Below the pieces are notes generated by a model. It did no database searches. It was given only the letters and a program-made list of their open reading frames with translations, and was not told where the DNA came from. Of a DNA stretch of 64,000 bases, positions 7,406 through 20,269 are shown piece after piece (within the stretch, counting starts at the first letter, position 1; every line of letters starts with the position of its first letter). Position numbers and translations under genes: made by a program. Source of the DNA: a virus; the IMG/VR virus record IMGVR_UViG_3300017963_000239, positions 1 through 64,000 of that record; one strand, written 5' to 3'.

Positions 7406-7572
7406 GCAGCGTCCAACCGATCCGAGCACACACGCTTTCAGACTTCCAATCTGAGAATACGGGTTCGAATCCCGTGCCCTCCTCCATCGCCTTCGGGCGA
7501 GTAGTCAACGGGGGGCTCGTCTAACGGCTAGGACATCACAGCAAACACCTGCTCTGTTCCCTCGGACGCTGC
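7406..7572 (+). ncRNA. circularly permuted tRNA-Gly(TCC)-like RNA with CCAAC/CTCGG closing stem
   Basis: Order: anticodon arm, T arm, GCCCTCC-T-CCA, hairpin, GGGGGGC, D arm; closed by GCAGCGTCC/GGACGCTGC. Confidence 0.8.
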
Positions 7573-7579
7573 AAAGTCT

Positions 7580-7933
7580 TTACGGTCTGCGAGGGATCGT
7601 CATGCCGCTGTGGGTGCGGATGCCCAGCATCTCCTTCAAGATGCCGAGGGCCTTCTCATCATCGAACTGCTTGCACGAGAACACGTCCATCATGAACGTG
7701 CGTCGCAGCGGCCAGCAGTGGATGGAGATGTGCGAGGTGGAGATCATGGCGTAGGCCGAGATGCCGCCTTCGTCCAAGAACCCCTGGCTGTTCAATTTGC
7801 TCTTGTCGACGGGGATGCGCTTGAAGCGCGGACCGTCGATGACCTCCATGTCGAGCGCTCGCGCCAACGAGCTGAACAGCTCTCGTAGGTGGTGCTCGGT
7901 GAACACGATCTCATCGCGCACTGTCCCATCCAC
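7580..7933 (-). CDS. speD: S-adenosylmethionine decarboxylase proenzyme-like
   Basis: GGISAYAMISTSHISIHCWP..DVFSCKQF; GLHLVVD motif extends upstream of called start. Confidence 0.75.
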   Translation of the reverse strand: MDGTVRDEIVFTEHHLRELFSSLARALDMEVIDGPRFKRIPVDKSKLNSQGFLDEGGISAYAMISTSHISIHCWPLRRTFMMDVFSCKQFDDEKALGILKEMLGIRTHSGMTIPRRP

Positions 7934-8061
7934 GACGAGGTGCAGTCCGTCGATGACGTTGGCCGTGGCTCGGGATGGTCCGGCACCAGGATCTCCCAGT
8001 CAAGGTCGTTTTTCTCCCCCCAAAGGTGTCAGACGTTCGGGGGTCCGCACGTCGTGGGAGC

Positions 8062-8484
8062 ATGAAGATCACGAAAGACTCACATGTCGACCACAACCTC
8101 ACCACGGAGCATCTGGAGTTCATCAAGGAGCGCTTCGGACACATCGAAGAGTTCTTCATCGAGACCGTGGAGGTGCCTCTGCATCTTCCTCCGCTTCCTT
8201 GTGGGCTCTTCGGCCCGTTCATGGGCGATGAACCCGTGGAGGAGAGCGAGGTCTCCTACGTGCGCCGGGGCGACCGGCCGGGAGATTCCCGCGTCGTACA
8301 GCGCGCCCAACGGATGGTCCGGAAGATGACCGTCATCGGCGGCCCTCATGAGGGAGCCATCATCATGTTCACGGCCTACGGTGGGCCGTGCGCTCCACGC
8401 GAGCCGTGGGACGAGTCCCTGTCTCCGGAGGAGCGAGAAGAGAGCGTGGCTTTTTGGAAGGATCACGCGCTCGCCGCAGAGTAG
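8062..8484 (+). CDS. hypothetical protein
   Basis: GGAG RBS, typical codon usage. Confidence 0.6.
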   Translation: MKITKDSHVDHNLTTEHLEFIKERFGHIEEFFIETVEVPLHLPPLPCGLFGPFMGDEPVEESEVSYVRRGDRPGDSRVVQRAQRMVRKMTVIGGPHEGAIIMFTAYGGPCAPREPWDESLSPEEREESVAFWKDHALAAE

Positions 8485-8560
8485 GCCACCTTGGCTCAGT
8501 TGGTAGAGCAGCTGTTTCGTAAACAGCAGGTCTCCGGTTCAAGTCCGGAAGGTGGCTCCA
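8485..8560 (+). tRNA. tRNA-Thr(CGT)
   Basis: Cloverleaf, loop TTCGTAA, CCA. Confidence 0.92.
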
Positions 8561-8611
8561 TGTGGTGCGCAAGCACCGGCCTGGGAGTCGCTTTGGCTTC
8601 TCCCTCGTCTT

Positions 8612-8687
8612 GCCCCCATCGTCTAGTGGACCAGGACACCGCCCTTTCACGGCGGGAACAGGAGTTCGATTCTCCTTGGGGGTGCCA
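8612..8687 (+). tRNA. tRNA-Glu(TTC)
   Basis: Cloverleaf, loop CTTTCAC, CCA. Confidence 0.92.
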
Positions 8688-8730
8688 GGGGTTGGTCGGC
8701 GGTTAACTAGCCGGCCCGCTCCGTAGGTTT

Positions 8731-8803
8731 GCTTCGGTAGCTCAGATGGCAGAGCGGTGGAGTGAAGATCCACGCGTCGCTGGTTCGATTCCGGCCCGGA
8801 GCA
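8731..8803 (+). tRNA. tRNA-Phe(GAA)
   Basis: Cloverleaf, loop GTGAAGA. Confidence 0.9.
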
Positions 8804-8810
8804 CTATTTA

Positions 8811-8839
8811 TTGACAATCACTTAGCCACTTGATAGTGT
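8811..8839 (+). promoter_or_regulatory. TTGACAATC-type promoter
   Basis: TTGACA-17 nt-TAGTGT with TG extension. Confidence 0.6.
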
Positions 8840-8841
8840 CA

Positions 8842-8918
8842 CGGGACATAGCACAGTCTGGCAGTGCGCGAGCTTTGGGTGCTCGAAGTCGGCGGTTCGA
8901 ATCCGCCTGTCCCGACCA
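8842..8918 (+). tRNA. tRNA-Pro(TGG)
   Basis: Cloverleaf, loop TTTGGGT, CCA. Confidence 0.92.
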
Positions 8919-8968
8919 GCGGCGCACTCGGCTCAATGGAGAGCCATCGGCGTCAGAGGAGAATAGAG

Positions 8969-9049
8969 ATGGAAGCTGAAGCACTGGGACCCGCGGAGAG
9001 GATCATCGACACGGTCCTCACGTACAACGGGAAGAGCGAGGAGAGCTGA
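8969..9049 (+). pseudogene. duplicated, recoded N-terminus of the downstream vWA gene
   Basis: MEAEALGPAERIIDTVLTY then stop vs MDAETLGPAERIINTVLTY at 9051. Confidence 0.85.
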
Positions 9050-9050
9050 T

Positions 9051-10949
9051 ATGGACGCGGAGACTTTGGGTCCTGCCGAAAGGATCATCAACACAGTGCT
9101 AACCTACCAGGACCATCTCTGGCACAACCGTCCGGGGTTCGTCGTGACGGACAACTCGGCGGTGGGCGTCAAGTGGCAGCCGGTGACCACGAAGGACGAG
9201 GACGGCAAGAAGGTCGTCTATCAGGTCCACAAGCGTGGTAAGCGGCGCACTCGGACGAAGCTCGGCACGCTCTGGGCCGACAACACCATTCGGGACGAGA
9301 ACCGACGCAAGATCGGCGAGTACCGACCGGCGGGGCTTTTCCCTGAGGTGGCGACCTGGATGTACAAGCAGGTGGCCGACGTCTGGAGGATGGACAACGA
9401 GTTCGCCGCGCGGTGGGCGTCGTACCAGTTTCCTCAGGACCACAAAGACATGAAGGTCGTGCTTGCGGCGTTCATGCTGGTCCAGTCGCGGAAGGGCGAC
9501 CCCGTTCGAGAGGACGGGCAGGTCTTGTTCCACGACGACGACTTCCGGGAGGTCGGGGAGGCCATGTGTCTCATCCACCGCAGGGACAAGAAGGGCATCG
9601 ACCCGAAGATGCTGGCGCGGATTCGGGACGTGTTGGAGGTTCCTGCCATCGCGGAGCTGAACCGCGAGCTGGGGTTCGGGCGCTCCACGCGCACGCCGTT
9701 CTTGGGCCGTTGGCCGAAGGCGGTTCGGGCGTGGCTCCGATTCCGGGAGGAGAACCTGCCGGTGTTGGAGGGCTTGGTGAACAGTGGTCAGCGCAACATC
9801 GCGCGGAAGCTCGCGAAGGCTGTGGGCTACAAGCCTCAGTCCCCGAAGTTCTTCGAGGTGTTGGGCTGGACGCAGAGCCAGGCCAAGGATGGTCGCAGGA
9901 AGATCGCTCTCGGGCAGGACTTCTCGGGTACGGAAACTTGGGAAGGACTGAGCGAGCAGGAGATCTGCGAGCTGATCATGCGCGAGAAGACCAACTACAA
10001 GCGCATCGTCGGTCTGCTCCCGAAGGACGTGGGGCTGACTCGGGCCATCATGGCTGCGGCTGTGGAGGCGGGCTCCTTGTCCGACAAGGATCTGATCATC
10101 CAGGCGCCGACCCTGGAGGACTTGGGCTTGCTGAAGGTCCAGGAAATCAAGGAGCGGTGGGAGGCGGCCATGAGCCGTGCCGAGGACATGCGGGCGGCGA
10201 ACATCGCAGCTCGGATGCGTACCAAGGAGGGGCGCGAGAAGATGGAGGCCGCGGCCGACACTGCCTTGCAGCAGGCGGCTGAGGAAGAGATGAAGAACCT
10301 TCGGATCTACTTCATCGTCGACCGCTCCGGTTCGATGGACGACTGCATCGAGCGCGCCAAGAGCCACTTGAAGCGGTTCCTGCAGGGCTTCCCGCCGGAC
10401 CGCATCCACGTTTCGCACTTCAACACGGTGGGGCGTGAGGTGGAGATCAAGCACGCTTCCGCAGCGGGCGTCGAGCAAGCCTTCCTAGGCATCCAGGCCA
10501 CGGGTGGGACGAACTACGGCGCCGGCATTCGGGTGCTGCAGCACCGGCCCCCGAAGGACGACGAGGATACGCTGATGATCTTCGTCGGCGATGAGAAGGC
10601 GCACTCCTTCACGCACGACGTGCAGGTGTCGGGTCTGCGCCCCATGGCGTTCGGCTTCATCAAGGTGGAGTCGAACTGGGGCATGGCGGGTCGAGCTGTG
10701 CAGGACACGGCGAGGGAGCTGGGTATCCCCTGCTTCATGATCGAGGAGAGCACGTTCGGCGAGCCTGGCGAAGACCTGGACCCCTATGTCATTCCTCGGA
10801 CGATCCGGAATCTCGTCGCGGTTACTCCGGTCGGGCAGTACCACGGCGTGCAGCGCGTTGCGCCGCGGGTCACGCTGGTCGACCGCATCATGAAGACCGA
10901 CCTGCTCCACAAGCCTGTCTGGGCCACGGAGCTGTCGTCGGCAGCGTGA
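9051..10949 (+). CDS. vWA-domain protein, possibly Ro60/TROVE-like
   Basis: C-terminal MIDAS DRSGSM..GGT..VGDE; long basic helical N-terminal region. Confidence 0.7.
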   Translation: MDAETLGPAERIINTVLTYQDHLWHNRPGFVVTDNSAVGVKWQPVTTKDEDGKKVVYQVHKRGKRRTRTKLGTLWADNTIRDENRRKIGEYRPAGLFPEVATWMYKQVADVWRMDNEFAARWASYQFPQDHKDMKVVLAAFMLVQSRKGDPVREDGQVLFHDDDFREVGEAMCLIHRRDKKGIDPKMLARIRDVLEVPAIAELNRELGFGRSTRTPFLGRWPKAVRAWLRFREENLPVLEGLVNSGQRNIARKLAKAVGYKPQSPKFFEVLGWTQSQAKDGRRKIALGQDFSGTETWEGLSEQEICELIMREKTNYKRIVGLLPKDVGLTRAIMAAAVEAGSLSDKDLIIQAPTLEDLGLLKVQEIKERWEAAMSRAEDMRAANIAARMRTKEGREKMEAAADTALQQAAEEEMKNLRIYFIVDRSGSMDDCIERAKSHLKRFLQGFPPDRIHVSHFNTVGREVEIKHASAAGVEQAFLGIQATGGTNYGAGIRVLQHRPPKDDEDTLMIFVGDEKAHSFTHDVQVSGLRPMAFGFIKVESNWGMAGRAVQDTARELGIPCFMIEESTFGEPGEDLDPYVIPRTIRNLVAVTPVGQYHGVQRVAPRVTLVDRIMKTDLLHKPVWATELSSAA

Positions 10950-10957
10950 GGTGAACC

Positions 10958-11878
10958 ATGGGTTGGAGAGATCTGCTTCAGGCCGATGACGAGACCGTCG
11001 TCTCGGCGTGGGTCGGGGGCAGGACTCTCCGTACCCGAAACCGCACGTGGACCATCGAGGGGCGCCTCCCACCGGAGCACGGCTGGCACTCTTTCAGCAT
11101 CACGGGCCGAAAGGCCCGCTGGAAGGAGCCGACCAACGCTCCGATGGAGGTGCTTTTCGATCTGCAGCGCGGCTACCTCGTCGGGGACCGCCTCGTGGCG
11201 GACAACGTAGAGGTCGAGCTGGACCCCGCGAAGCTCGCGCAGCGCTTCGAGCGCGTGCACTTGGTGGAGGAAGGCTTGGACCGCTTCGCCCGCATCGCTG
11301 CGGGGCGCGTCTGTGACGATGGACCGCTCATCTACGAGGGGCCGGACATGCCGCTCGGCCCGGAGGACGACGTACTTCAGGCATTCCTGGACCGGAAAGG
11401 CACCGTAGACGCCGTTTCGGGGGTTCCCCCTGCTCTGGACGCGGCCTTCCGGTTCGAGTCCTGGCAGCGCTCTGAGGCCGAAAGACGGCGCCGTGAGGAG
11501 CGGGAGCGTCGGGAGCGAGAAGAGCGCCGCAGGCGCATCATGGAGCAGGTCGGCAGCGCAGCCGGTCGGAGGGCCATGGCGCGCGAGGACTTTGGCGAGG
11601 CTGCTCGGGCAGCGCTCGCGATGGGCAACGCCGAGTACTTGGATCATCGGCGAGCTGTAGGACGGAACGAGATGATCGTGCGGTTCCGTATAAACAGGCG
11701 GCGCTTCGAGTGCACCTGCGACGCGGAGACTCTGCGCATCATCGACTCGGGCATCTGCCTGACGAGTCATGACACCGGAAAGCAGTACGACAACTACTTC
11801 ACGTTGGAGTCGTTGCCTGGGGTCATTGAGGACGCGGAGCGTCAGGGCGTGCTCGTGGTGTTCCGCCACGTCGACTAG
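10958..11878 (+). CDS. putative divergent E2-like (Ubl-conjugating) protein
   Basis: C-terminal IIDSGICL resembles E2 G-x-ICL active site; operon context with JAB/Ubl/E1. Confidence 0.45.
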   Translation: MGWRDLLQADDETVVSAWVGGRTLRTRNRTWTIEGRLPPEHGWHSFSITGRKARWKEPTNAPMEVLFDLQRGYLVGDRLVADNVEVELDPAKLAQRFERVHLVEEGLDRFARIAAGRVCDDGPLIYEGPDMPLGPEDDVLQAFLDRKGTVDAVSGVPPALDAAFRFESWQRSEAERRRREERERREREERRRRIMEQVGSAAGRRAMAREDFGEAARAALAMGNAEYLDHRRAVGRNEMIVRFRINRRRFECTCDAETLRIIDSGICLTSHDTGKQYDNYFTLESLPGVIEDAERQGVLVVFRHVD

Positions 11879-11890
11879 GAGCTGAGAGAG

Positions 11891-12514
11891 ATGCACACGA
11901 CGAAGTTCGAGCTGGCGGACGGCCGTGGGGTCACTGTCGCCCACAACGGAGACTGGTCTGGGGACGCAGAGGTTACGTGGACGGAGAAGAACGGCAAGCG
12001 GGCGTGCACGATGGTGCCGGCCGACGTGCTTCTCCAGGTTGGGAACCAGGCGGCGTTCGAGGCCCTGAAGGGGAAGCTCATCAGCTTCATCGAAGATCTG
12101 GAGTGGGAGGAAGAGCCCGAACCGGTCAGGAAGGGGAACGACATGGAAGCTGGAGTGGTTCTCGGGCCGGGCGGCGAGCCGATCTATTGGCACGTTCCTT
12201 CCGACCGCCAAGTGGCGCACATTCCTGACAGCCAAGTGCTGTGGGATGTGTTCTTCAAGTACAAGGAGACGATGACGGGCTTCGCGCACAGTCATCCGGG
12301 CAGTGGGTCCCCGCTTCCGTCCCACATGGACTTGACCACCTTTGCTGCCAACGAAGTAGGACTCGGGAAGCGGTACGATTGGTGGATCGTCACCGGGAGC
12401 GCCGTAGGGCTCGTCCGGTGGAGGGGGCCGAAGAGGCTCGACTACGAAGTGTGGGCTCTGCTGTCTGAGGAGCCGGCATGGGTGAACGAGCTTCGAAGGG
12501 TTTCAACAGGCTGA
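11891..12514 (+). CDS. JAB/JAMM metalloprotease
   Basis: E...HSHP..PSHMD JAMM motif; JAB domain starts near ATG 12143. Confidence 0.8.
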   Translation: MHTTKFELADGRGVTVAHNGDWSGDAEVTWTEKNGKRACTMVPADVLLQVGNQAAFEALKGKLISFIEDLEWEEEPEPVRKGNDMEAGVVLGPGGEPIYWHVPSDRQVAHIPDSQVLWDVFFKYKETMTGFAHSHPGSGSPLPSHMDLTTFAANEVGLGKRYDWWIVTGSAVGLVRWRGPKRLDYEVWALLSEEPAWVNELRRVSTG

Positions 12515-12531
12515 CAGGAGTGGAGGTTGAG

Positions 12532-12858
12532 ATGGTACAGCGAATGCCAGGTGAAGATGGTGACGGAGCGGTCGAGCAGATCATGGACGCCGTGAACGTC
12601 GCACCACAGGACAACGAGGCCGTGTTGGAGATCACCTACGGTGGTCAGCAGGGCACTTTGACCGACCCGGTTCCGTGGGACGCTGCGGACGGCGACTTGA
12701 AGCAGTGGGCGACGGAGGCGTTGCAGGCTGGGGGCATCCCTGGTTTGGACGCCACGCCGGACGCGGACTTCACGGACTTCGTCGTCCACAAGTTCTCCGC
12801 GAAGGACGGCCTGCCCAACAGGGTCGTACTGAGACCCAAAACGGAATACGGGTATTGA
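12532..12858 (+). CDS. ubiquitin-like (beta-grasp) protein
   Basis: Small protein ending LRPKTEYG-Y, between JAB and E1; GGAGG RBS. Confidence 0.6.
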   Translation: MVQRMPGEDGDGAVEQIMDAVNVAPQDNEAVLEITYGGQQGTLTDPVPWDAADGDLKQWATEALQAGGIPGLDATPDADFTDFVVHKFSAKDGLPNRVVLRPKTEYGY

Positions 12859-12891
12859 CCGAATACAGTGTTTGGTTCTACAATACCAAAC

Positions 12892-13818
12892 ATGGTTGAG
12901 GTTGATGTTCGGGCTTTGGCGGAGGGTTATCAGGACGGAGCGAGCGCGAAGAAGCTGGCACGCCAGCACGGTGTGTCGGTTTGGACCGTGCTCGCCCGTC
13001 TGAGGTCCGCTGGAGTGGAGATACGCCCGAGACAGCCCGAGAAGCGTTTGGATCTTCCGAAGCCCGACCACTCGCTTTTGGTCGAGATTGTTGACGGCCT
13101 TCTTCTCGGTGATGGCAGTATTGATCGAAAGGGGGCTCTTCGATTGGAGCAAGCCCGCGACACTACGGGGTGGTTGTACGAGGTGCAGGGGCTCTTGAGA
13201 GCTGTTCGGTGTTCGTCTAGGATCGTTCCTATTCCTCCGAGGGAAAGGCGCATAGAGGATCGTGTGGTGAGATCTTCGGGAGGCGCATTGCTTTACACCC
13301 CGTGCTACGTCGAGTTGAAGAAACAGCGCGCACGGTGGTATCCGAAGGGGGAGAAGCGCGTTCCAAAGGGCATCAAGATGTCTCCGATGGTGCTAGCTCA
13401 GTGGTTGGCCGGGGACGGTACATACGACCATTCGGGGCGCCTACGTTTCTGCACTGATGGATTCAGGCGCGAGGATGTGGACCTTCTCATTCGTGCCCTG
13501 GGGGTGGTTGGGCTACAGGCAACCAGGGCGGCGAGGCCGCGACCGGGCCAGTACCACGTCAACGTGGATCGCCTGGACGAAGCTGTGAAGGTTAAGGCCA
13601 TGATCGAGGACTTGGTTCCTGCGTGCTTCCGATACAAGCTCTCCTACGTGCGACCACCTATTCGGAAGCCTGGGAGGAAGCTGACCGACGAGCAGGTCTT
13701 GGAGATTAGAGAGCGGGCAGAGCAGGGTGAGTCCAAGGCTGCGCTGGCAGAACGCTTCGGTGTGTCCGACACGGCTGCCGGAAACATCGTTAAAAGACGA
13801 ACGTACAAGGATCTGTGA
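12892..13818 (+). CDS. LAGLIDADG homing endonuclease with HTH extensions
   Basis: GLLLGDGSI and QWLAGDG motifs; atypical codon usage. Confidence 0.85.
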   Translation: MVEVDVRALAEGYQDGASAKKLARQHGVSVWTVLARLRSAGVEIRPRQPEKRLDLPKPDHSLLVEIVDGLLLGDGSIDRKGALRLEQARDTTGWLYEVQGLLRAVRCSSRIVPIPPRERRIEDRVVRSSGGALLYTPCYVELKKQRARWYPKGEKRVPKGIKMSPMVLAQWLAGDGTYDHSGRLRFCTDGFRREDVDLLIRALGVVGLQATRAARPRPGQYHVNVDRLDEAVKVKAMIEDLVPACFRYKLSYVRPPIRKPGRKLTDEQVLEIRERAEQGESKAALAERFGVSDTAAGNIVKRRTYKDL

Positions 13819-13826
13819 GGATACCG

Positions 13827-14402
13827 ATGGCACGAGTAGTAGTAGTTGGAGTTGGTGCTTTGGGTTCCCACGTGGTGCAGTACCTGCGCAACGTGGCCGA
13901 TGAGATCGTGGTGATTGATCACGATAGGGTCGAGCGCAAGAACGTGCTGTCGCAGTTCCACGGCAAGGGCACGGTAGGCAAGTCGAAGGTCCAGGCGATC
14001 CAACAGTCGATGAACTTCATGTTCGGTGTGAAGGTCCACACGGTCCCTCACAAGCTCGTGGAGGACAACGCCGAGCAGTTGCTCGGGGGTGCAGACCTCG
14101 TGTTGGACTGCTTGGACAACGGAGAGTCCCGAGCTGTCGTGCAGCGCTACGTCCGTGAGGCCGGTACGCCGTGCTTGCACGGAGCGCTCGACGCGAACGG
14201 CACTTTCGGACAGGTCATGTGGGACGACGAGTTCCACATCGACTACGAGACGACGCGCGGAGGAGCTACCTGCGAGAACGGAGAGCACTTGCCCTTCATC
14301 TCGATGGTGTCCGCTTTCCTGGCGCGCGCCGCACAAGCGTTCCTGACGCAAGGCAAGCAGATTGGGTTCCTCGTCTATCTGGACGGGGCCAAGCGAGTCT
14401 GA
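13827..14402 (+). CDS. E1/ThiF-family adenylyltransferase
   Basis: VVVGVGALGS, IDHDRVERKN..Q, GKSKV, DLVLDCLDN, ATCE. Confidence 0.88.
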   Translation: MARVVVVGVGALGSHVVQYLRNVADEIVVIDHDRVERKNVLSQFHGKGTVGKSKVQAIQQSMNFMFGVKVHTVPHKLVEDNAEQLLGGADLVLDCLDNGESRAVVQRYVREAGTPCLHGALDANGTFGQVMWDDEFHIDYETTRGGATCENGEHLPFISMVSAFLARAAQAFLTQGKQIGFLVYLDGAKRV

Positions 14403-14513: not shown

Positions 14514-14625
14514 GGGGTCTTGAGAAGTTCGGTTCTCATTATCTGGGATTGCCCCTCGGCCTCGTCACACAGGCCAACCAGTACTTCCCCACACGCTTGG
14601 GGGTTCGATTCCCCCAGACCCCGCC
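14514..14625 (+). ncRNA. tRNA-like RNA whose anticodon arm is replaced by a CTCGG/CCAAC hairpin
   Basis: GGGGTCT/AGACCCC acceptor, D-like hairpin, T arm GGGGGTTCGATTCCCCC, central CCTCGGCCT-CGTCACAC-AGGCCAAC. Confidence 0.7.
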
Positions 14626-14630
14626 GATTA

Positions 14631-14773
14631 GTGACCAACGGATCAGATCGTACATGCAACGTATGCGGGTTCGAGTCCCGTCACTTCCGCCAAACTGGAA
14701 ATGAAGCCCGACTGGTAGGGCACTAGCCTCGAAAGCTAGCACAACGCTAACCCCGGTCTCCTCACTCGGTCAC
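14631..14773 (+). ncRNA. circularly permuted tRNA-Ser(CGA)-like RNA with CCAAC/CTCGG stem
   Basis: T arm, CACTTCC-G-CCA, GGAAATG, D arm, anticodon arm loop CTCGAAA; closed by GTGACC/GGTCAC. Confidence 0.78.
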
Positions 14774-14784
14774 AAGTCGAATCT

Positions 14785-14933
14785 GCCCCTTTGGGAGAGT
14801 GATACTCCGCTTGCTACCCTCCAGCTCTTGCCACTCCCCTCATTGGAGGGACCGGGCAAGTGCTCACAAGCCGCCCAAGTATTGGGCACCATCTCCGCAA
14901 GAGATCCGTGGTTTGATTCCACGAAGGGGCTCC
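14785..14933 (+). ncRNA. tRNA-like RNA with greatly extended anticodon arm
   Basis: GCCCCTT/AAGGGGC acceptor, T-like arm CGTGGTTTGATTCCACG; shares TGCTCACAAGC with 15077 element. Confidence 0.5.
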
Positions 14934-14939
14934 GGTCAA

Positions 14940-15062
14940 GTCGACCAACTTGAAAGTGCTAACACGCAATTCGCCCAGTGGTAGGGCGTCAACCTGCTAA
15001 GTTGAAAGTCACTGGTTCAAATCCAGTATTGCATTCCAATTCAGCACCTCACCTCGGACGAC
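14940..15062 (+). ncRNA. tRNA(GCT)-like cloverleaf embedded in CCAAC/CTCGG stem
   Basis: D, anticodon (CTGCTAA) and T arms within GTCGACCAAC...CTCGGACGAC. Confidence 0.72.
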
Positions 15063-15076
15063 ACGACCAACCTTTC

Positions 15077-15192
15077 GGGCCGCTGGAATTTTGGTTCCAA
15101 ACCTTTACCCAGCATAGCTCCTCGGCCCCGTCACACGGGCCAACACGCGTTGCTCACAAGCACTCCGAGTTCGACTCTCGGGCGGTCCACCA
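15077..15192 (+). ncRNA. tRNA-like RNA whose anticodon arm is replaced by a CTCGG/CCAAC hairpin
   Basis: GGGCCGC/GCGGTCC-A-CCA, T arm, central CCTCGGCCC-CGTCACAC-GGGCCAAC. Confidence 0.72.
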
Positions 15193-15207
15193 GATACAAT
15201 AACCTTT

Positions 15208-15720
15208 GTGAACGAGGAGACTAGAACCTGCAAGGACTGTGGTAAGTCCAAACCGATCAAGTCGTTCAAGCCTACTGGGAGGGGCGGCTATCGACGGCGC
15301 GTTTGCTATCCTTGCTACCGAGCTAGGGAGGATAAGAGAAACCCAGCCTACAAGCTGGAGCGCCAGCGTCGCTACAGGGCGAACAACCCCGTAACCAGCA
15401 TCTTGTGGGACTGTAGGCAGTCGGATAGGAAACGAGGGTTCAGCGGGAACGACTTGGACAAGGAGTTCATCGCAGAGAAGATTTCAGAGGGTTGCCTGTA
15501 CTGCGGAGAGCGAAGCATCAGGATGACCCTAGATAGGATCGACAACGAGAAGCCGCACGACAAAAGCAACGTCGCCCCCTGTTGCATTCGCTGCAACTAT
15601 TTGAAGGGGTCGATGCCTTACGAGGCTTGGTTGCACATCGTTCCTGCGGTTCGAGAAGCGAGTGAGTTAGGGCTGTTCGGATCTTGGCGTTCGGAGCCCA
15701 TCTCGAAAAAGGGACCGTAG
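15208..15720 (+). CDS. HNH-type endonuclease
   Basis: CKDC..CYPC, CLYC..LDRIDN..H..NVAPCCIRCN. Confidence 0.8.
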   Translation: MNEETRTCKDCGKSKPIKSFKPTGRGGYRRRVCYPCYRAREDKRNPAYKLERQRRYRANNPVTSILWDCRQSDRKRGFSGNDLDKEFIAEKISEGCLYCGERSIRMTLDRIDNEKPHDKSNVAPCCIRCNYLKGSMPYEAWLHIVPAVREASELGLFGSWRSEPISKKGP

Positions 15721-15737
15721 TCATCTACGGGGCACGG

Positions 15738-15764
15738 GCGGTTCGAGGCCGCAGCGGTCCACCA
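15738..15764 (+). pseudogene. orphan T arm and acceptor 3' end matching the 15077 RNA
   Basis: GCGGTTCGAGGCCGC-A-GCGGTCCACCA; same terminal 11 nt as 15182-15192. Confidence 0.7.
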
Positions 15765-15765
15765 A

Positions 15766-15933
15766 GGCATCCAACAGATCAAGTCATACATGCATCCTCG
15801 AAAGAGGGCTCCAGGTTCGAGTCCTGGCTCCGCGACCAGCCCGCAAGGGCTACAAACCGCGGAGTGGCGGAATGGTAGACGCACTTGTGTTTGGAACAAG
15901 CAAAACGCTTTCTGGCCTGTTCACTCGGATGCC
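15766..15933 (+). ncRNA. circularly permuted class-II tRNA-like RNA with CCAAC/CTCGG stem
   Basis: Variable arm, T arm, CTCCGCG-A-CCA, hairpin, CGCGGAG, Leu-type D arm, anticodon arm loop GTTTGGA; closed by GGCATCC/GGATGCC. Confidence 0.78.
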
Positions 15934-15994
15934 CTATCTCTGGTTCCCCTGATTGGCAGGGCTCGCTGGGTTCGACTCCCAGGTGCCGGACCAA

Positions 15995-16224
15995 GACAGC
16001 CAACTGGTGAGATCACACACGCACTGGTTTAGCGCTTGACTGAATATCAAGAGTACGTTGGTTCGAGACCAACCCCTCCCGCTCTGCTTCGGACTGCACG
16101 AAGGTTCCGCTGATCCCCGGTAAGACGGCCATGACGCCGGGGCTAGGTAACCATGGCCAGCAGTCCGGAGTGGAGCGGGAGGGTAGCTGAGAAATCGCAA
16201 CTCTGGTCCCTCCCCTCGGCTGTC
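15995..16224 (+). ncRNA. circularly permuted tRNA-Phe(GAA)-like RNA opened in the D loop
   Basis: 3' D strand, loop CTGAATA, T arm, CCCTCCC, long linker, GGGAGGG-TAGCT; closed by GACAGCC/GGCTGTC. Confidence 0.72.
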
Positions 16225-16285
16225 CTGATTTTTCGTACACGGTGGAGTCTTAGGACTCCTGCTCTATCCGTGATACAGTGTCTGT

Positions 16286-16834
16286 GTGGCGGCGAAGAAG
16301 AAGCTCCCGTACCAACCGAATTGGGAGAGGACGTCTACCAGCACGGGCTACAAGGTAGTTCATTGCCCCGACCACCCGAGAGCGTGGAGCACCGGGTACG
16401 TGTACGTGCACGTCGTGGTCATGGAGGCGAAGCTGGGGCGCTTGTTGAGACGTGGAGAGGTGGTTCACCACGACAACGAGGACCGGTTGGACAACGATCC
16501 AGACAACCTGGTGCTGACGTCGAAGGTAGGGCACGGCAAGGAGCACGCGAGGCCGCAGAGACAAGTAGGTTTGACCTGCGCTAACTGCGGCAAGAAGTTC
16601 AAGAGACGTCTGGGCCAAGAGCCCTCCAAGAAAGGAGCCAAGAGGGCGTTCTGTTCGCGGCGCTGCAACGGGTTGGCAAACGGCTTCAAGGGAAACCACG
16701 GGGTTCGACATGGGACACTCGTGGCCTACAACTACAGGGGTTGTCGCTGCTCGTTGTGCAAGGAAGCCAAATCTCGGTACTATCGATCAAGAAAGAAAGC
16801 CCTCGACGCCGATGGACGGCATCCGGATTCCTAA
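16286..16834 (+). CDS. HNH homing-type endonuclease
   Basis: VHVVVME..EVVHHDNEDRLDN..NL, HGT..CRCSLC; stop lies in anticodon loop of tRNA-Arg(CCT). Confidence 0.88.
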   Translation: MAAKKKLPYQPNWERTSTSTGYKVVHCPDHPRAWSTGYVYVHVVVMEAKLGRLLRRGEVVHHDNEDRLDNDPDNLVLTSKVGHGKEHARPQRQVGLTCANCGKKFKRRLGQEPSKKGAKRAFCSRRCNGLANGFKGNHGVRHGTLVAYNYRGCRCSLCKEAKSRYYRSRKKALDADGRHPDS

Positions 16835-16872
16835 TCCGGTCGGTGCAGGTTCGATTCCTGCCGGGGGTGCCA
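16799..16872 (+). tRNA. tRNA-Arg(CCT), atypical D arm
   Basis: Loop TTCCTAA, T arm, CCA. Confidence 0.8.
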
Positions 16873-16900
16873 GACGGAGCATATTGTGCTAGCGTCTTGA

Positions 16901-16978
16901 TGCGGCGTGGAGCAGTCAGGTAGCTCGCAAGGCTCATAACCTTGAGGTCGTAGGTTCAAATCCTACCGCTCGCAACCA
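16901..16978 (+). tRNA. tRNA-Met(CAT), initiator-like
   Basis: TGGAGCAG..GGTAGCTCG D arm, loop CTCATAA, CCA. Confidence 0.85.
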
Positions 16979-16983
16979 CCTAG

Positions 16984-17012
16984 TTGACAATCCGCTGACC
17001 ACATAATATGAT
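16984..17012 (+). promoter_or_regulatory. TTGACAATC-type promoter, leaderless GTG 6 nt downstream
   Basis: TTGACA-17 nt-TATGAT. Confidence 0.65.
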
Positions 17013-17018
17013 GGCGGC

Positions 17019-17303
17019 GTGGATCAACTACCAAACAGCTCGTGCGTCGGATGCGGCTACTGCTGCTCCAAGGCACCGTGCCCTCTCGGGGTAAAGCTGC
17101 ATGGCGCGGTGGCGCCGTGCCCGTCACTCGTCGAGAAGGACGGGAGGTGGTGGTGCTCAGAGGTGTTGAGAGCGGAAGGGCAGGACAAGCAATGGCTGGT
17201 CGACAACTTGTACATCGGCGCGGGGTGCTGCAGCAGCCTGAACAGCCAGCGCCGCGCGAAGCTCTCCGAACTGAACTCCTCGTCGAGTTCTGCCGGGCGT
17301 TGA
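17019..17303 (+). CDS. CxxCxxCC cysteine-cluster protein
   Basis: CVGCGYCC..C..CPSL..WC. Confidence 0.55.
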   Translation: MDQLPNSSCVGCGYCCSKAPCPLGVKLHGAVAPCPSLVEKDGRWWCSEVLRAEGQDKQWLVDNLYIGAGCCSSLNSQRRAKLSELNSSSSSAGR

Positions 17304-17465
17304 TCCGCAACCATCCGAGCACGGACGCTATCGTCCTGAGCCTTGTGGCGGCGCAGCGCGCTACAGAGGCGACAGACGATGAGATGAAGCTGTTCTCGGA
17401 GGCGGTTCTTCAGGAGCAACGCAAAGCCCCATGGCCCGAAGGGTTCTTCGGTTGAGGAGAGGACG

Positions 17466-17747
17466 ATGGCTGACGATCTGGAGCTGACGGACGAGGAACG
17501 AGAGCACATCAAGGCGCGCCGAGCTGAGAAGAAGCAGAAGGCGTGGAATCCGAAGCAAGCCTCCGACTACACGCCGGAGGAGAAGGCTGTGGCATTCGAC
17601 AAGATCCACAAGCTCGCGCTGGAGCATTTCGAAGGGAAGAAGAAGGACGGCTGGGGCTTGAAGGACGTCGAGCACTGGTTCTACGAGGCTGGCATGGAGC
17701 TTCTTGGGGAGGGCGTCTGGGACGTCTTGAACTCGTTCGAGGGCTGA
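17466..17747 (+). CDS. hypothetical protein
   Basis: GAGGA RBS, typical codon usage. Confidence 0.6.
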   Translation: MADDLELTDEEREHIKARRAEKKQKAWNPKQASDYTPEEKAVAFDKIHKLALEHFEGKKKDGWGLKDVEHWFYEAGMELLGEGVWDVLNSFEG

Positions 17748-17788
17748 GCGCCTTGCGATAGATCCCCGTGCTCGGGTAGTATCCGGGC

Positions 17789-18061
17789 ATGGGCAAGCTA
17801 GGTCATCTGGTCCGTCATTTGCGGGAGGGTATGGGTGCCGTGGTTAGCGGTGAGTTCGGATCCCCGCAGGCTCCTGAGACCATTCCTGGTGGTGAGGGTG
17901 CTCATCTGACCCCGCAGGACGTCGACCCCGAGCAGTTGGCTTTGGGGGCCGCGGTCGAGATGGAGCACACGAAGGACCCGAAGACGGCCATGGAGATCGC
18001 GCTCGATCACTTGGCCGAAGACCCGAAGTACTACGACAAGCTGCTGTCGCTCGGGCTCTGA
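17789..18061 (+). CDS. DUF5661-like phage protein
   Basis: QLALGAAVEMEHT..AMEIALDHLAEDPKYYDKL. Confidence 0.6.
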   Translation: MGKLGHLVRHLREGMGAVVSGEFGSPQAPETIPGGEGAHLTPQDVDPEQLALGAAVEMEHTKDPKTAMEIALDHLAEDPKYYDKLLSLGL

Positions 18062-18136
18062 GCAGCAACACATAGCTCCACGGAGGAGCGTTCCGAGCAC
18101 TGGAACTTCACGTGCTCCTCCGTTTCTTTGCGTCTT

Positions 18137-18211
18137 GGGGATGTGGTCTAGCTAGGCGAGGACGCTGGATTGTCGATCCAGAGGTCGCGGGTTCGAATCC
18201 CGTCATCCCCG
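18137..18211 (+). tRNA. tRNA-Asp(GTC)
   Basis: Cloverleaf, loop TTGTCGA. Confidence 0.9.
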
Positions 18212-18213
18212 CT

Positions 18214-18254
18214 GTGGTCGTAGCTCAATCGGTAGAGCGTCTGGATGTGGCCCA
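18214..18254 (+). pseudogene. 5' half of tRNA-His(GTG)
   Basis: GTGGTCGTAGCTCAATCGGTAGAGCGTCTGGATGTGG then no T arm. Confidence 0.75.
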
Positions 18255-18274
18255 AAAGTGTTAGGCTCACAACC

Positions 18275-18703
18275 ATGCCAGCGAAGACCAAGAAGTGTGG
18301 GAAGTGCCAGAAGCGCAAGCCTGTGGATCAGTTTTACTGGAAGGACAAGGCGCGGGGGACGAGGCATTCGTACTGCAGGGCGTGTTTCGCCGCGCGCCAC
18401 AAGACTTACTACCAGGAGAACAAGCAGTACTACTTGGAGAAGAAGGCGCGCTGCAAGCAGAGGCTCCGCGAGTATGTGAACGAACTGAAGCGCGCGCCGT
18501 GTACGGACTGTGGCCGGACGTACCCGCCCTACGTGATGGACTTTGATCACTTGAATGGGGAGGAGAAGGGGGGCCTCGTGGCGCATTTGGTGGCGCAGGG
18601 GCAGGTTCGGAGAGCCAAAGAAGAGATAGCTAAGTGCGAGCTGGTATGCGCCAACTGTCACAGGATCAGAACGCACGAAAGACGTATGGAGGTCGTAGCC
18701 TAA
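18275..18703 (+). CDS. HNH homing-type endonuclease
   Basis: CTDC..MDFDHL..KCELVCANCHR; stop inside downstream tRNA-His. Confidence 0.85.
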   Translation: MPAKTKKCGKCQKRKPVDQFYWKDKARGTRHSYCRACFAARHKTYYQENKQYYLEKKARCKQRLREYVNELKRAPCTDCGRTYPPYVMDFDHLNGEEKGGLVAHLVAQGQVRRAKEEIAKCELVCANCHRIRTHERRMEVVA

Positions 18704-18760
18704 CGGTTAAGGCACAGGATTGTGGCTCCTGGTATGCCGGTTCGATTCCGGTCGATCTCC
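18688..18760 (+). tRNA. tRNA-His(GTG)
   Basis: G-1, loop TTGTGGC, C73. Confidence 0.88.
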
Positions 18761-18872
18761 CCGGTGGTCGAGTCCGCTCGGTCACCCCACTACGCCCCTG
18801 GAGCCGGGTACTCCGGCGGGGCCAACAAGGAGAAGAAGAGAGACAAGGGTGTGGCAACCCAGGCAGGTAGCC

Positions 18873-20030
18873 ATGAACAAGGTACACGTGAACGTCGGAA
18901 CCATCGGACACATCGACCATGGGAAGACGACCCTCACCGCGGCGATCACCAAGGTGATGGCGGAGCTTCACGGTGGGAAGGTGGTCCCCTTCAACAAGAT
19001 CGACAACGCACCGGAAGAGCAGAAGCGCGGCGTGACCATCAACACGTCGCACGTGGAGTACGAGTCGGCGACGCGGCACTACGCGCACGTCGACTGTCCG
19101 GGGCACGCTGACTACATCAAGAACATGATCACCGGTGCGGCCCAGATGGACGGCGCGGTGCTTCTGGTCGATGGGTCGCAGGGTCCGCAGGTGCAGACCA
19201 AGGAGCACATCCTGCTTGCGAAGCAGGTGGGTGTGGAGAGGATGGTGGTGTTCATCAACAAGGTGGACATCGCAGACCCCGAGCTGCTGGAGTTGGTCGC
19301 CTTGGAGACGGCCGAGCATCTGGAGGCGCAGGGATACGAGGACTCTCCGGTGGTCCAGGGCTCCGCTCTGAAGGCTCTGGAGGGCTCTGAGACGGGCTGC
19401 ATCGTCGAGCTGGTCGAAGCCATGGACAGGCACTTCCCGGACCCTGTGAGGGACTTCGAGGCGCCTTTCATGCTGCCTATCGAGGGAGTCCACACCATCG
19501 AAGGCCGCGGCACTGTGGTCACCGGTCGTGTGGAGCGTGGTGTGTTGCCTCTCGGGGCGACGGTCGAGATCATCGGTCTGGTGGACGAGGACTCCAAGCC
19601 TCGCCAGGTCGTGGTCACGGGCATCCAGATGTTCCACAAGGACCAACCCGAAGCGCGGGCCGGAGAGAACTGTGGCCTGTTGCTGCGCGGTGTTCGTCGG
19701 GACGAGGTGGTTCGGGGTCAGGTGCTCATCGTGCCGGGCTCCGTGCGGTCTCACATGAAGGCGAAGGCCGAGCTGTTCGTGTTGTCGAAGGAGGACGGGG
19801 GTCGGCACACTCCGATCTTCAAGGGCTACCGCCCACAGTTCTTCTTCGGCACGACCAACGTCACGGGCACCGTGGCGGACATCGGCGAGCTGGACTTGGT
19901 CAAGCCTGGCGAGCACGCCGAAGTAGCGCTGGAGTTGCAGAAGCCTGTCGGCATGGAAGCTGGCATGCGATTCGCTGTTCGTGAGAGCAGCAAGACCGTC
20001 GCTGCAGGTGTGGTCCTCAGCGTCACGTAG
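18873..20030 (+). CDS. tuf: elongation factor Tu (divergent)
   Basis: [58 protein letters not shown]. Confidence 0.96.
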
Positions 20031-20062
20031 AACGGGCAGGCCGGTCCCGCAAACCGGCCATT

Positions 20063-20139
20063 GGGGATGTGGTGCAGTCGCGTAGCACACTTGCCTGTCA
20101 CGCAAGAGGTCGCGGGTTCAAGTCCCGTCATCCCCGCCA
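20063..20139 (+). tRNA. tRNA-Asp(GTC)
   Basis: Cloverleaf, loop CTGTCAC, CCA. Confidence 0.9.
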
Positions 20140-20140
20140 A

Positions 20141-20269
20141 GCGCCCATCGGATCAGATCAAACAAGCATCCTACGTAGCTCAGATGGTAGAGCAGCGGCC
20201 TCTCAAGCCGCCGGCCATGGGTTCAATTCCCATCGCGGGTAACACAACATGATCTTTTCACTCGGGCGC
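20141..20269 (+). ncRNA. tRNA(CTC)-like cloverleaf embedded in CCATC/CTCGG stem
   Basis: GCGCCCATC..AGATCA [cloverleaf, loop CTCTCAA] TGATCT..CACTCGGGCGC. Confidence 0.72.

What the first reader, a model, noticed from the sequence alone, without database searches (positions are those of the whole stretch)
7406..20269. Family of tRNA-mimic RNAs sharing one CCAAC/CUCGG stem grafted at different positions of the cloverleaf
Seen: eight elements (7406, 14514, 14631, 14940, 15077, 15766, 15995, 20141) contain a helix ending in CC/GG followed by an AAC x CUC internal loop (ATC in 20141). The outer helix differs in every copy yet stays paired (GCAGCGT/ACGCTGC, GTGA/TCAC, GGCAT/ATGCC, GACAG/CTGTC, GCGC/GCGC), i.e. 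covariation around an invariant motif. A/C-rich linkers join it to a tRNA body. The module is attached at the acceptor ends, in the D loop, at the D/anticodon junction, after the anticodon arm, or in place of the anticodon arm. Known: bacterial YrlA Y RNAs join a Ro60-binding stem to a permuted tRNA-like domain. Inference: a modular 'handle plus tRNA bait' RNA family, each member exposing different tRNA surfaces; I do not recognise the motif as a described one.
Basis: partly seen in the sequence, partly recalled or inferred. Interest (0 to 1): 0.95.

Follow-up and report, generated by a model that had tools for sequence, protein, structure and literature searches.

The report
Handle-tagged tRNA-mimic RNAs beside Ro60-like gene
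A large uncultured phage carries eight small RNA genes that share one conserved two-helix "handle" joined to whole, rearranged or partial tRNA look-alikes. The same handle lies beside a Ro60-shaped protein gene in many phages and bacteria, so these are most likely an undescribed kind of Ro/Y-RNA particle, not new tRNA genes.

Summary
All eight elements exist at the stated places and share one module. The full module is P1 (variable, ending C-G, C-G), an A-N-C x CUC internal loop, a second covarying helix P2, an invariant ACA-N-GC, then the cargo.

A covariance model built only from cargo-free modules of other phages recovers five of the six open-type copies in the window. It gives 108 hits in 60 related loci, all on the gene strand. 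Pairing is 90.8% against 29-40% in slid controls.

The neighbouring 632-aa protein has a Ro60 fold plus a vWA domain, but it is not a Pfam TROVE member. The handle sits 2-5 kb downstream of this gene in huge phages. In distant bacterial homologues it mostly lies within 45-100 nt of the gene, like yrlA beside rsr.

It is not in Rfam and it fails the YrlA model and motif.

Best reading: these are Y-RNA-like partners of the Ro60-like ring that display tRNA surfaces. The tRNA splicing and ribozyme readings are disfavoured. Binding, transcript ends and function are untested.

This scan has noted the same class of RNA beside Ro60-like genes on other phage DNA.

The parts
7406..7572 (+). E1, open type. 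P1 7406-7414/7564-7572; AAC 7415-7417 x CTC 7561-7563; P2 7424-7428/7550-7554; ACACGC 7430-7435. The cargo is a permuted tRNA-like body opened at the D/anticodon junction: anticodon arm 7438-7454 (UCC), T arm 7459-7475, acceptor 3' strand + U + CCA 7476-7486, UUCG hairpin linker 7487-7500, acceptor 5' strand 7510-7516, D arm 7519-7534. It starts 1 nt after tRNA-Asn (7330-7405).
   Evidence: model R1 18.8 bits
14514..14623 (+). E2, hairpin type. A tRNA-like RNA in normal order (acceptor 14514-14520/14616-14622, D arm, T arm 14599-14615) in which the handle replaces the anticodon arm. P2 3' strand 14546-14549, CTC 14555-14557, capped P1 14558-14575, AAC 14576-14578, P2 5' strand 14586-14589, ACACGC 14591-14596.
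   Evidence: homologous hairpin-type elements in 15+ loci
14631..14773 (+). E3, open type. P1 14631-14636/14768-14773; AAC x CTC; P2 14645-14650/14754-14759; ACATGC 14652-14657. The cargo is permuted: T arm, acceptor 3' strand + G + CCA, 4-nt linker, acceptor 5' strand, D arm, anticodon arm (CGA). The handle sits at the variable-loop position.
   Evidence: R1 13.3 bits; positional homologue L002:15248-15401
14940..15062 (+). E4, open type. P1 14940-14946/15056-15062 (one A.A mismatch); AAC 14947-14949 x CTC 15053-15055; P2 14956-14960/15043-15047; ACACGC 14962-14967. The cargo is a whole tRNA-like body in normal order (ARAGORN 14964-15038, anticodon GCU, no long variable arm). The handle sits at the acceptor ends. 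This is the same type as the bacterial archetype.
   Evidence: R1 12.9 bits; homologues L002:15071-15205 and L003:18357-18478; bacterial L175:9835-9967
15077..15192 (+). E5, hairpin type. Acceptor 15077-15083/15182-15188 + A + CCA, D arm, T arm 15165-15181. The handle replaces the anticodon arm: P2 3' strand 15111-15114, CTC 15121-15123, capped P1 15124-15141, AAC 15142-15144, P2 5' strand 15151-15154, ACAAGC 15156-15161.
15766..15933 (+). E6, open type. P1 15766-15772/15927-15933; AAC x CTC; P2 15783-15786/15913-15916 (weakest P2 of the set); ACATGC 15788-15793. The cargo is permuted, with a long variable arm: variable arm, T arm, acceptor 3' strand + A + CCA, GCAA hairpin linker, acceptor 5' strand, D arm, anticodon arm.
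   Evidence: best R1 hit in the window, 21 bits
15995..16224 (+). E7, open type. P1 15995-16001/16218-16224; AAC x CTC; P2 16011-16015/16204-16208; ACACGC 16017-16022. The cargo is a tRNA-like body opened in the D loop, with an acceptor stem lengthened to about 12 bp and closed by an insert of about 85 nt.
   Evidence: R1 does not report it, probably because the insert is too long.
20141..20269 (+). E8, open type. P1 20141-20146/20264-20269; ATC 20147-20149 x CTC 20261-20263; P2 20155-20159/20251-20255; ACAAGC 20162-20167. The cargo is a whole tRNA-like body (20169-20241, anticodon CUC). It starts 2 nt after tRNA-Asp (20063-20139).
   Evidence: R1 18 bits
9051..10949 (+). Gene for a 632-aa Ro60-like protein, the proposed partner. 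It has a small N-terminal beta-rich part, a helical-repeat region with the Ro60 (TROVE) fold, and a C-terminal vWA domain with an intact MIDAS (D424-x-S426-x-S428, T487, D514).
10958..14402 (+). Genes that travel with the Ro60-like gene: a 306-aa protein of unknown family (10958-11878), a JAB-like protein (11891-12514) and an E1/ThiF-like protein (13815-14402). A LAGLIDADG endonuclease gene (12868-13818) is inserted among them. The RNA array starts 112 nt after the E1-like gene.
   Evidence: same gene order in L002

Best explanation
The eight elements are genes for small non-coding RNAs. They are transcribed with the phage's tRNA array.

All share one protein-binding handle:
- a rod of two helices, P1 and P2, separated by a conserved A-N-C x CUC internal loop;
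- an invariant ACA-N-GC on one strand and an A-rich strand on the other at the far end.

Beyond the handle sits an exchangeable cargo. Here the cargo is a tRNA look-alike in normal order, circularly permuted at different positions, or lacking the anticodon arm.

By analogy with Ro60 and Y RNAs, the handle most likely docks on the Ro60-like ring protein encoded at 9051-10949. The tRNA-like cargo would then bring tRNA-binding enzymes or tRNA-directed nucleases to the ring, or hold them away from real tRNAs. Y RNA tethers PNPase to Rsr in a comparable way.

What is shown:
- the RNA family, its structure and its strand;
- the Ro60-like fold of the protein;
- the conserved linkage of RNA and gene in phages and bacteria.

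What is inferred: binding, processing of the RNA ends, and the role of the cargo.
For: 1. Structure. Model R1 was built from six cargo-free modules of other phages. In the window it finds 15758-15941, 7400-7578, 20132-20275, 14622-14782 and 14930-15069 among its six best hits. In 94 related loci it gives 108 hits with E<=0.1, all on the + strand.

2. Covariation. 90.8% of cells are paired, against 29-40% with slid partners. The covariation score is 0.879 against about 0.12. All 19 pairs show changes on both sides. G-U pairs are present, which points to RNA of this strand. ACA.GC and CUC are identical in 108/108 hits.

3. Protein.
- In an unbiased search of 48,161 PDB chains with the N-terminal 415 residues, the three best matches are the three Ro60 representatives: 1yvp_A (Z 11.3, 292 aligned), 2nvo_A (Z 9.7) and 9l5y_B (Z 8.8). 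The next match has Z 6.0.
- The 11 best Foldseek matches of the full model are Ro60/TROVE entries.
- The vWA domain with a MIDAS is C-terminal, as in Ro60.

4. Linkage.
- 90 of 108 hits lie downstream of the gene, 65 of them 2-5 kb away.
- 37 of 50 loci with full flanks hold at least one hit, or 39 of 50 counting hairpin-type matches.
- In bacterial homologues of only 39-43% identity (Verrucomicrobiota, Terriglobales, Leptonemataceae), the best hit lies beside the gene on the same strand. Examples: L175 77 nt, L170 43 nt, L169 45 nt and L168 84 nt downstream; L171 carries four in tandem.

5. The handle works without tRNA. Stand-alone modules of 61-82 nt exist. In the hairpin type P1 is capped, so the RNA ends are not what matters.

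6. Precedent. Phage and bacterial Ro60 proteins bind adjacent Y-like RNAs, some with permuted tRNA-like domains (PMC4201824, PMC12135203).
Against: - No binding, transcript or processing datum exists. No RNA run holding this DNA could be found.
- The protein is not a sequence-level TROVE member. Pfam TROVE finds nothing. A profile search of 1.84 billion proteins reaches no TROVE-annotated protein.
- The fold match is moderate (Z 9-11, rmsd about 5 A) and rests on a predicted model.
- The handle lacks the published Ro-binding motifs (GNCGAAN0-1G, CGAA, GGUCCGA).
- Three other proteins (306 aa, JAB, E1-like) travel with the gene, and any of them could be the true partner.
- Some handle copies lie far from the gene; in G004 two lie about 230 kb away.
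Confidence: 0.62

Rival explanations
1. The handle is real but does not depend on the Ro60-like protein. It might bind another factor, such as the co-travelling 306-aa, JAB or E1-like proteins or a host protein. Alternatively it might only stabilise or mark the RNAs. On that view the tRNA-like bodies act on their own, as decoys for host tRNA-cleaving defence nucleases or as competitors for tRNA enzymes.
For: - The whole gene set, not the Ro60-like gene alone, precedes the RNA array.
- Some handles lie far from the gene.
- Anticodon loops keep the canonical 7-nt shape while the anticodon itself varies freely: 17 different anticodons among 24 ARAGORN calls. That suits a shape decoy.
Against: - In distant bacteria the RNA mostly lies within about 45-100 nt of the Ro60-like gene itself.
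- Stand-alone handles have no tRNA part to act as a decoy.
Confidence: 0.2
2. These are interrupted and circularly permuted tRNA genes. The handle would be a processing signal, comparable to the archaeal/algal bulge-helix-bulge, that is cut out and the ends ligated (for example by RtcB) to give working tRNAs. Alternatively, RNase P and 3' trimming would turn the permuted members into two-piece tRNAs held together by the handle.
For: - E1, E3 and E6 contain every tRNA arm, a canonical anticodon loop and an encoded CCA.
- The same motif occurs both capped inside normal-order bodies and at the termini of permuted ones, which is the logic of BHB systems.
- RtcB is present in 4 of 5 near-complete relatives.
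Against: - E2, E5 and many relatives have no anticodon arm. Some members have no tRNA part at all.
- Cutting in the conserved loop would leave P2 and ACANGC inside the product.
- The loop is a symmetric 3x3 or 4x4 loop, not two 3-nt bulges 4 bp apart.
- No splicing endonuclease (PF01974) is found in five records, four of them at least 94% complete.
- Anticodons among homologues are scattered and include unusual A34 ones.
- The cargos are not copies of the phage's regular tRNAs with the same anticodon.
- The phage already has regular Gly-UCC, Ser-CGA and Glu-CUC tRNAs.
Confidence: 0.08
3. The handle is a small self-cleaving or self-ligating ribozyme that processes the neighbouring RNAs.
For: It has invariant unpaired nucleotides (CUC, ACA.GC) in internal loops between covarying helices, as small ribozymes do.
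Against: - No Rfam ribozyme family matches, even at E<=10.
- I could identify no pseudoknot or known catalytic core.
- Tight linkage to one protein gene across phyla points to a protein partner.
Confidence: 0.03

Closest known systems
YrlA-type bacterial and phage Y RNAs with Ro60/Rsr (Rfam RF02553; Chen et al. 2014, PMC4201824)
   Same: - A small RNA encoded beside, and on the strand of, a Ro60-fold ring protein with a vWA domain.
- A protein-binding stem joined to a tRNA-like domain that is often circularly permuted (T arm, closed acceptor, D arm).
- Location among tRNA genes in phages.
   Different: - It fails the Rfam model (no hit on the elements; gathering score 69 bits).
- It lacks GNCGAAN0-1G. 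The handle instead has two helices, an A-N-C x CUC loop and ACA-N-GC.
- There are up to eight members per genome, against one or two.
- The cargo ranges from none to a whole tRNA and is attached at many different cloverleaf positions.
- The protein is not recognised by Pfam TROVE.
Thermus phage phiLo phiRo60 with Yrl1/Yrl2 (PMC12135203; PDB 9KOP, 9L5Y)
   Same: - A phage-encoded Ro60-fold protein with adjacent Y-like RNAs of stem / internal loop / stem design.
- It is the third best structural match of the N-terminal domain (Z 8.8).
   Different: - The phiLo RNAs carry the CGAA motif and lie upstream of the gene.
- Here the motif differs, the RNAs lie downstream, and they carry tRNA-like cargo.
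Circularly permuted and intron-containing tRNA genes matured through bulge-helix-bulge motifs (Cyanidioschyzon merolae, Thermofilum pendens; reviewed in PMC4090602)
   Same: - Permuted order of the tRNA halves, with a linker across the acceptor ends.
- One shared motif, either capped inside normal-order bodies or formed by the termini of permuted ones.
   Different: - There is no BHB geometry and no splicing endonuclease.
- Several members cannot yield a tRNA.
- The motif persists without any tRNA.
Class I RNAs of dictyostelid amoebae (PMC7919456)
   Same: A short closing stem is followed on the 5' side by a conserved motif, then a variable interior. With a one-base insertion, CU-U-ACA-N-GCA-A here lines up with the five positions that paper calls most conserved (T3, C6, C9, A10, A11).
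   Different: - The full 11-nt motif is from my memory and an earlier scan note, not from the text I could read.
- No Rfam hit links the two, and the organisms and known protein partners differ.
- This is a lead only.

Membership tests
YrlA (Rfam RF02553) | Covariance-model score at or above the gathering score (69 bits) | tested here: not met
   The best YrlA score in 7000-21000 is 31.2 bits, and it falls on the regular tRNA-Asp region, not on an element. There is none at gathering score in the window or in six related loci. There is none at E<=10 over the T-arm-first elements of L063.
YrlA (Rfam RF02553) | 5' motif GNCGAAN0-1G (PMC4201824) | tested here: not met
   The 5' strand reads R-N-C-C-A-N-Y (GTCCAAC, GACCAAC, GCCCATC and so on) in the window and in 108 homologues.
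YrlA (Rfam RF02553) | tRNA-like domain with T arm, closed acceptor stem and D arm between the two strands of the protein-binding stem | tested here: met
   E1, E3, E6 and E7 have it. 36 of 101 cargos in relatives are T-arm-first. E2, E4, E5 and E8 have other arrangements.
YrlA (Rfam RF02553) | Encoded near a Ro60 orthologue on the same strand | tested here: inconclusive
   The strand is the same and the position is conserved next to a protein with a Ro60-like fold. That protein is not a demonstrable TROVE orthologue by sequence.
Ro60 / TROVE proteins | Match to Pfam TROVE (PF05731) | tested here: not met
   No match for the protein or anywhere in the 81.9-kb record at E<=10. Ten remote relatives from a profile search also lack it.
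Ro60 / TROVE proteins | Helical-repeat ring fold followed by a vWA domain with a MIDAS | tested here: met
   N-terminal model: pLDDT 82, pTM 0.72. Ro60 chains are the top three of 48,161 chains (Z 11.3, 9.7, 8.8; next 6.0). The vWA domain gives Z 13-14. MIDAS residues are invariant in 28 sequences.
Ro60 / TROVE proteins | Binds a Y RNA stem on the ring surface | not testable with these tools
   This needs EMSA, pull-down or a structure.
BHB-processed permuted or intron-containing tRNA genes | Bulge-helix-bulge (3-nt bulges on opposite strands, 4 bp apart) at the junction | tested here: not met
   The conserved loop is a symmetric 3x3 or 4x4 internal loop directly between P1 and P2.
BHB-processed permuted or intron-containing tRNA genes | Removal of the motif gives a canonical tRNA | tested here: not met
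   E2, E5 and their homologues have no anticodon arm. Stand-alone modules have no tRNA part.
BHB-processed permuted or intron-containing tRNA genes | A tRNA splicing endonuclease is available | tested here: inconclusive
   PF01974 is absent from this record (54% complete) and from four relatives that are 94-100% complete. A host or unrecognised enzyme cannot be excluded.

The most novel reading that the evidence does not exclude
This is not a divergent Ro60/Y-RNA pair but a separate kind of ribonucleoprotein. A ring protein travels with its own ubiquitin-like (E1/JAB) enzymes. It carries a genome-encoded library of handle-tagged tRNA surfaces: whole, permuted at different positions, or partial. 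It uses them to capture, sense or neutralise tRNA-directed host factors such as anticodon nucleases. After RNase P cutting, it might instead supply two-piece tRNAs that still function.
Probability: 0.2. Interest if true: 0.88.

Novelty: new variant of a known kind. Interest (0 to 1): 0.7.

Why it matters
Ro60 and its Y RNAs are conserved from bacteria to humans, yet what the RNA's variable part recruits is known in only a few cases.

This family differs from those cases in four ways:
- One handle carries many different cargos within a single genome.
- Its structure is supported by strong covariation.
- It is present in hundreds of huge-phage contigs.
- In bacteria of several phyla it lies beside the gene.

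That gives a natural series of 'same handle, different tRNA surface' RNAs with which to test what a Ro-type ring does with tRNA mimics. It also defines a protein family that sequence methods do not connect to Ro60.

There is a practical point for annotation. tRNA finders call two of these elements as ordinary tRNAs (Ser-GCU at 14964 and Glu-CUC at 20169) and miss the rest.

Tried and rejected
- Megablast of 14400-16400 against GenBank phages found no match.
- The exact pattern of the capped P1 found no match in viral contigs.
- No RNA holder is listed for this DNA.
- A sequence search of the PDB with the protein, and with a profile of it, found only vWA or noise.
- The VIA second look with the full-length model was filled by vWA domains and said nothing on the N-terminal part. 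That part was therefore folded alone.
- Foldseek with the N-terminal model gave weak E-values (0.04-0.14). Ro60 entries were nevertheless the only rows with high probability.
- PHROGs, PADLOC and NCBIfam gave nothing for the Ro60-like protein.
- Relatives cannot be drawn for a virus record, so no TROVE sequences were available for a profile-profile comparison.
- Pattern hits 5429-5533 and 5726-5878 were rejected as chance.
- The R1 hits 58017-58102 (14.2 bits) and 5044-5108 (12.8 bits) are unresolved and probably false.
- ORF 8864-9049 upstream of the gene overlaps tRNA-Pro and is not a small ubiquitin-like gene.
- The whole-record search with R1 uses a loose first look and missed hits that cmsearch finds (G002, G005). 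Its counts are lower bounds.

Full report
**Setting.** The window is the first 64 kb of an 81.9-kb uncultured virus record (CheckV estimate 54% complete), with 61% G+C. It has 50 tRNA calls and a tmRNA, an EF-Tu gene at 18720-20030 and several HNH and LAGLIDADG endonuclease genes. Relatives of its marker protein sit on IMG/VR contigs of 130-620 kb, so this is a member of a clade of huge phages.

**Observation.** I read all eight places and they are as described.
- Six are 'open': the 5' and 3' ends of the element pair to form the outer helix (P1). P1 ends C-G, C-G and is followed by AAC (ATC in 20141) opposite CUC.
- Two are 'hairpin type' (14514 and 15077). The same helix and loop are present, but P1 is capped by a CGUCACAC loop and the element sits inside a tRNA-like RNA in normal order.
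- Unconstrained minimum-free-energy folds recover P1, the cloverleaf arms and, in seven of eight elements, P2.

The 'A/C-rich linkers' are structured.
- After a loop that varies in the window and is mostly paired in relatives comes a second helix, P2. It covaries among the copies: GAGCA/TGCTC, AGATC/GGTCT, GTGCT/AGCAC, AGATC/GATCT, TGCT/AGCA.
- On the 5' side comes ACA-N-GC, then the cargo. On the 3' side an A-rich stretch precedes P2.

**Relatives and the minimal module.**
- The 632-aa protein of 9051-10949 has more than 1500 homologues at about 60% identity.
- I fetched 144 loci around them. A strict pattern gives 116 matches on the gene strand against 8 on the other strand.
- Some relatives carry the module with no tRNA at all: L091:15310-15370 (61 nt), L021:17270-17345 and L010:6760-6841. 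The handle is therefore a unit of its own.
- In hairpin-type relatives it replaces the anticodon arm of a body in normal order.

**Independent test.** I built covariance model R1 from six cargo-free modules of other phages only.
- In the window, with filters off, five of its six best hits are the open elements, all on the + strand. E7 is missed, probably because its insert is 180 nt.
- In 94 loci it gives 108 hits at E<=0.1 in 60 loci, every one on the strand of the protein gene.
- On the resulting alignment, 90.8% of cells pair, against 29-40% when the partners are slid by 1-3 columns. The covariation score is 0.879 against about 0.12.
- All 19 pairs show changes on both sides, and G-U pairs occur. 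That alignment is fitted to the model, which favours pairing, so the slid controls and the strand asymmetry are the safer numbers.
- ACA.GC and CUC are identical in all 108 hits, and the A after P1 in 96 of them.

**The protein.**
- Pfam sees only a vWA domain. TROVE is not detected in the protein or in the record.
- The AlphaFold model of the whole protein (pLDDT 80) has Ro60/TROVE entries as its 11 best Foldseek matches, aligned over about 500-570 columns.
- Residues 1-415 folded alone (pLDDT 82, pTM 0.72) were aligned to 48,161 representative PDB chains without Foldseek. The top three are the three Ro60 representatives: Xenopus 1yvp_A (Z 11.3, 292 residues, rmsd 5.0), Deinococcus 2nvo_A (Z 9.7) and Thermus phage phiLo 9l5y_B (Z 8.8). 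The next chain has Z 6.0 over 112 residues.
- The MIDAS residues of the vWA domain are invariant.
- A profile search of 1.84 billion proteins found 203 relatives, but the remote full-length ones still have no Pfam TROVE hit.
- The protein therefore has the Ro60 architecture, but it is not a sequence-level TROVE member.

**Linkage of RNA and gene.**
- In the phage loci, 90 of 108 hits lie downstream of the gene and 65 lie 2-5 kb from its end. That is just after the co-travelling 306-aa, JAB-like and E1-like genes.
- 37 of 50 loci with 10-kb flanks hold a hit, or 39 counting hairpin-type matches.
- The strongest evidence comes from species-representative genomes. Homologues of 54-59% identity lie mainly on contigs binned to Myxococcota. 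Homologues of 39-43% identity lie in bacterial chromosomes or long contigs of Verrucomicrobiota, Terriglobales and Leptonemataceae.
- In those distant loci the best R1 hit sits beside the gene on the same strand:
  - L175, 77 nt downstream;
  - L170, 43 nt downstream;
  - L169, 45 nt downstream;
  - L168, 84 nt downstream;
  - L171, four in tandem from 186 nt downstream;
  - L174, two from about 600 nt downstream;
  - L177, just upstream.
- The bacterial RNA is the handle plus a tRNA body in normal order with a 3-bp acceptor. That is the arrangement of E4 and E8.
- This is the genomic signature that defined YrlA beside rsr (PMC4201824).

**Cargo.**
- Of 101 cargos, 36 start with the T arm (YrlA-like order), 29 are in tRNA order, 11 are intermediate and 25 lack a canonical T loop.
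- ARAGORN tRNAs with 17 different anticodons, several with A34.
- In the window, the cargos are not copies of the regular tRNAs with the same anticodon. E8 ('Glu-CUC') is closest to Lys-UUU, and E1 (UCC) to Ala-UGC over the T arm only.
- The regular Gly-UCC, Ser-CGA and Glu-CUC tRNAs exist elsewhere in the window.
- tRNA shape is kept, but decoding identity is not.

**Comparison with known families.**
- Rfam 15 gives only tRNA and tmRNA at gathering score.
- YrlA reaches 31 bits, against 69 needed, and only on ordinary tRNA sequence. It gives nothing on the YrlA-ordered elements of L063.
- The published Ro-binding motifs (GNCGAAN0-1G; CGAA; vertebrate GGUCCGA/CUUGACC) are absent. The handle's R-N-C-C-A-N-Y / CUC-G-G is only reminiscent of them (PMC4201824, PMC12135203).
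- Phage Ro60 homologues with adjacent Y-like RNAs are known in mycobacteriophages, CcrColossus, phage G and phiLo (PMC4201824, PMC12135203). A 'ROT/TROVE protein with tRNA-like partner' is noted for some jumbo phages (PMC7824862).
- The only GenBank phage record with this protein labels it 'similar to conserved hypothetical protein' and annotates no such RNA.

**Rivals.**
- A splicing or permuted-tRNA maturation system is disfavoured:
  - there is no BHB geometry;
  - several members cannot give a tRNA;
  - the handle persists alone;
  - no splicing endonuclease is found in five records.
  RtcB is present in four of five near-complete relatives, away from the gene. This fits the known Ro/Y-RNA/RtcB repair association as well as it fits splicing.
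- A ribozyme has no support beyond the conserved loops.
- A handle that serves another protein cannot be excluded without biochemistry.

**Earlier notes of this scan.** Other windows describe handle-tagged tRNA mimics beside Ro60-like genes in other phages (stem plus ACAGCAA) and an operon joining the Ro60-like gene to ubiquitin-like enzymes. I used them as leads only. The tests above were made here. The version in this window has ACA-N-GC and an additional outer helix with the A-N-C x CUC loop.

**Verdict.** This is a new variant of the Ro60/Y-RNA kind, with high confidence in the RNA family and moderate confidence in the partner. Its function is open.

Noticed in passing
window 15208-15765: An HNH endonuclease gene (15208-15720) follows E5 directly. 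After it lies a second, diverged T arm with the identical acceptor 3' strand GCGGTCC-A-CCA (about 15735-15765; first copy 15182-15192). It looks as if the nuclease cassette duplicated the 3' part of E5.
   Followed up: partly
window 14505-14511 and 15934-15991: Between E6 and E7 lies an orphan T arm plus acceptor 3' strand GTGCCGG-A-CCA. Its complement CCGGCAC stands just before E2, 1.5 kb upstream. This may be the two ends of a tRNA-like gene split by the inserted block, or it may be chance.
   Followed up: no
window 9051-14402: The Ro60-like gene is followed by a 306-aa protein of no known family, a JAB-like protein and an E1/ThiF-like protein. A LAGLIDADG endonuclease gene is inserted among them. 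The same order is seen in L002. Earlier scan notes call this a ubiquitin-like operon.
   Followed up: partly
window 18720-20030: A full-length EF-Tu gene (three Pfam domains, E 9e-57) lies inside the phage tRNA array, just upstream of tRNA-Asp and E8.
   Followed up: no
L146-L167 (genome contigs): The closest homologues of the Ro60-like protein in species-representative genomes lie mostly on contigs binned to Myxococcota (Polyangia, Kofleriaceae, Sandaracinaceae, Sorangium). This hints at the host group, or at phage contigs binned with their host.
   Followed up: no
L111:15913-16005: A bacterial small SRP RNA (Rfam 57.7 bits, gathering score 40) is encoded in a 497-kb phage record immediately after two handle RNAs.
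   Followed up: no
L122:5075-5156: A tRNA-Sec model hit just above threshold (49.3 bits against 47) lies in the tRNA array of a 437-kb phage.
   Followed up: no
window 27999-28530, - strand: A cluster of tRNA-like genes lies on the strand opposite all other tRNAs. It includes anticodons AUA and AAU and one gene with a 2-base 'anticodon' call.
   Followed up: no
window 14964-15038 and 20169-20241: ARAGORN and Rfam call the cargos of E4 and E8 as ordinary tRNAs (Ser-GCU without a long variable arm; Glu-CUC with two acceptor mismatches). Automatic annotation would miscount them as decoding tRNAs.
   Followed up: yes
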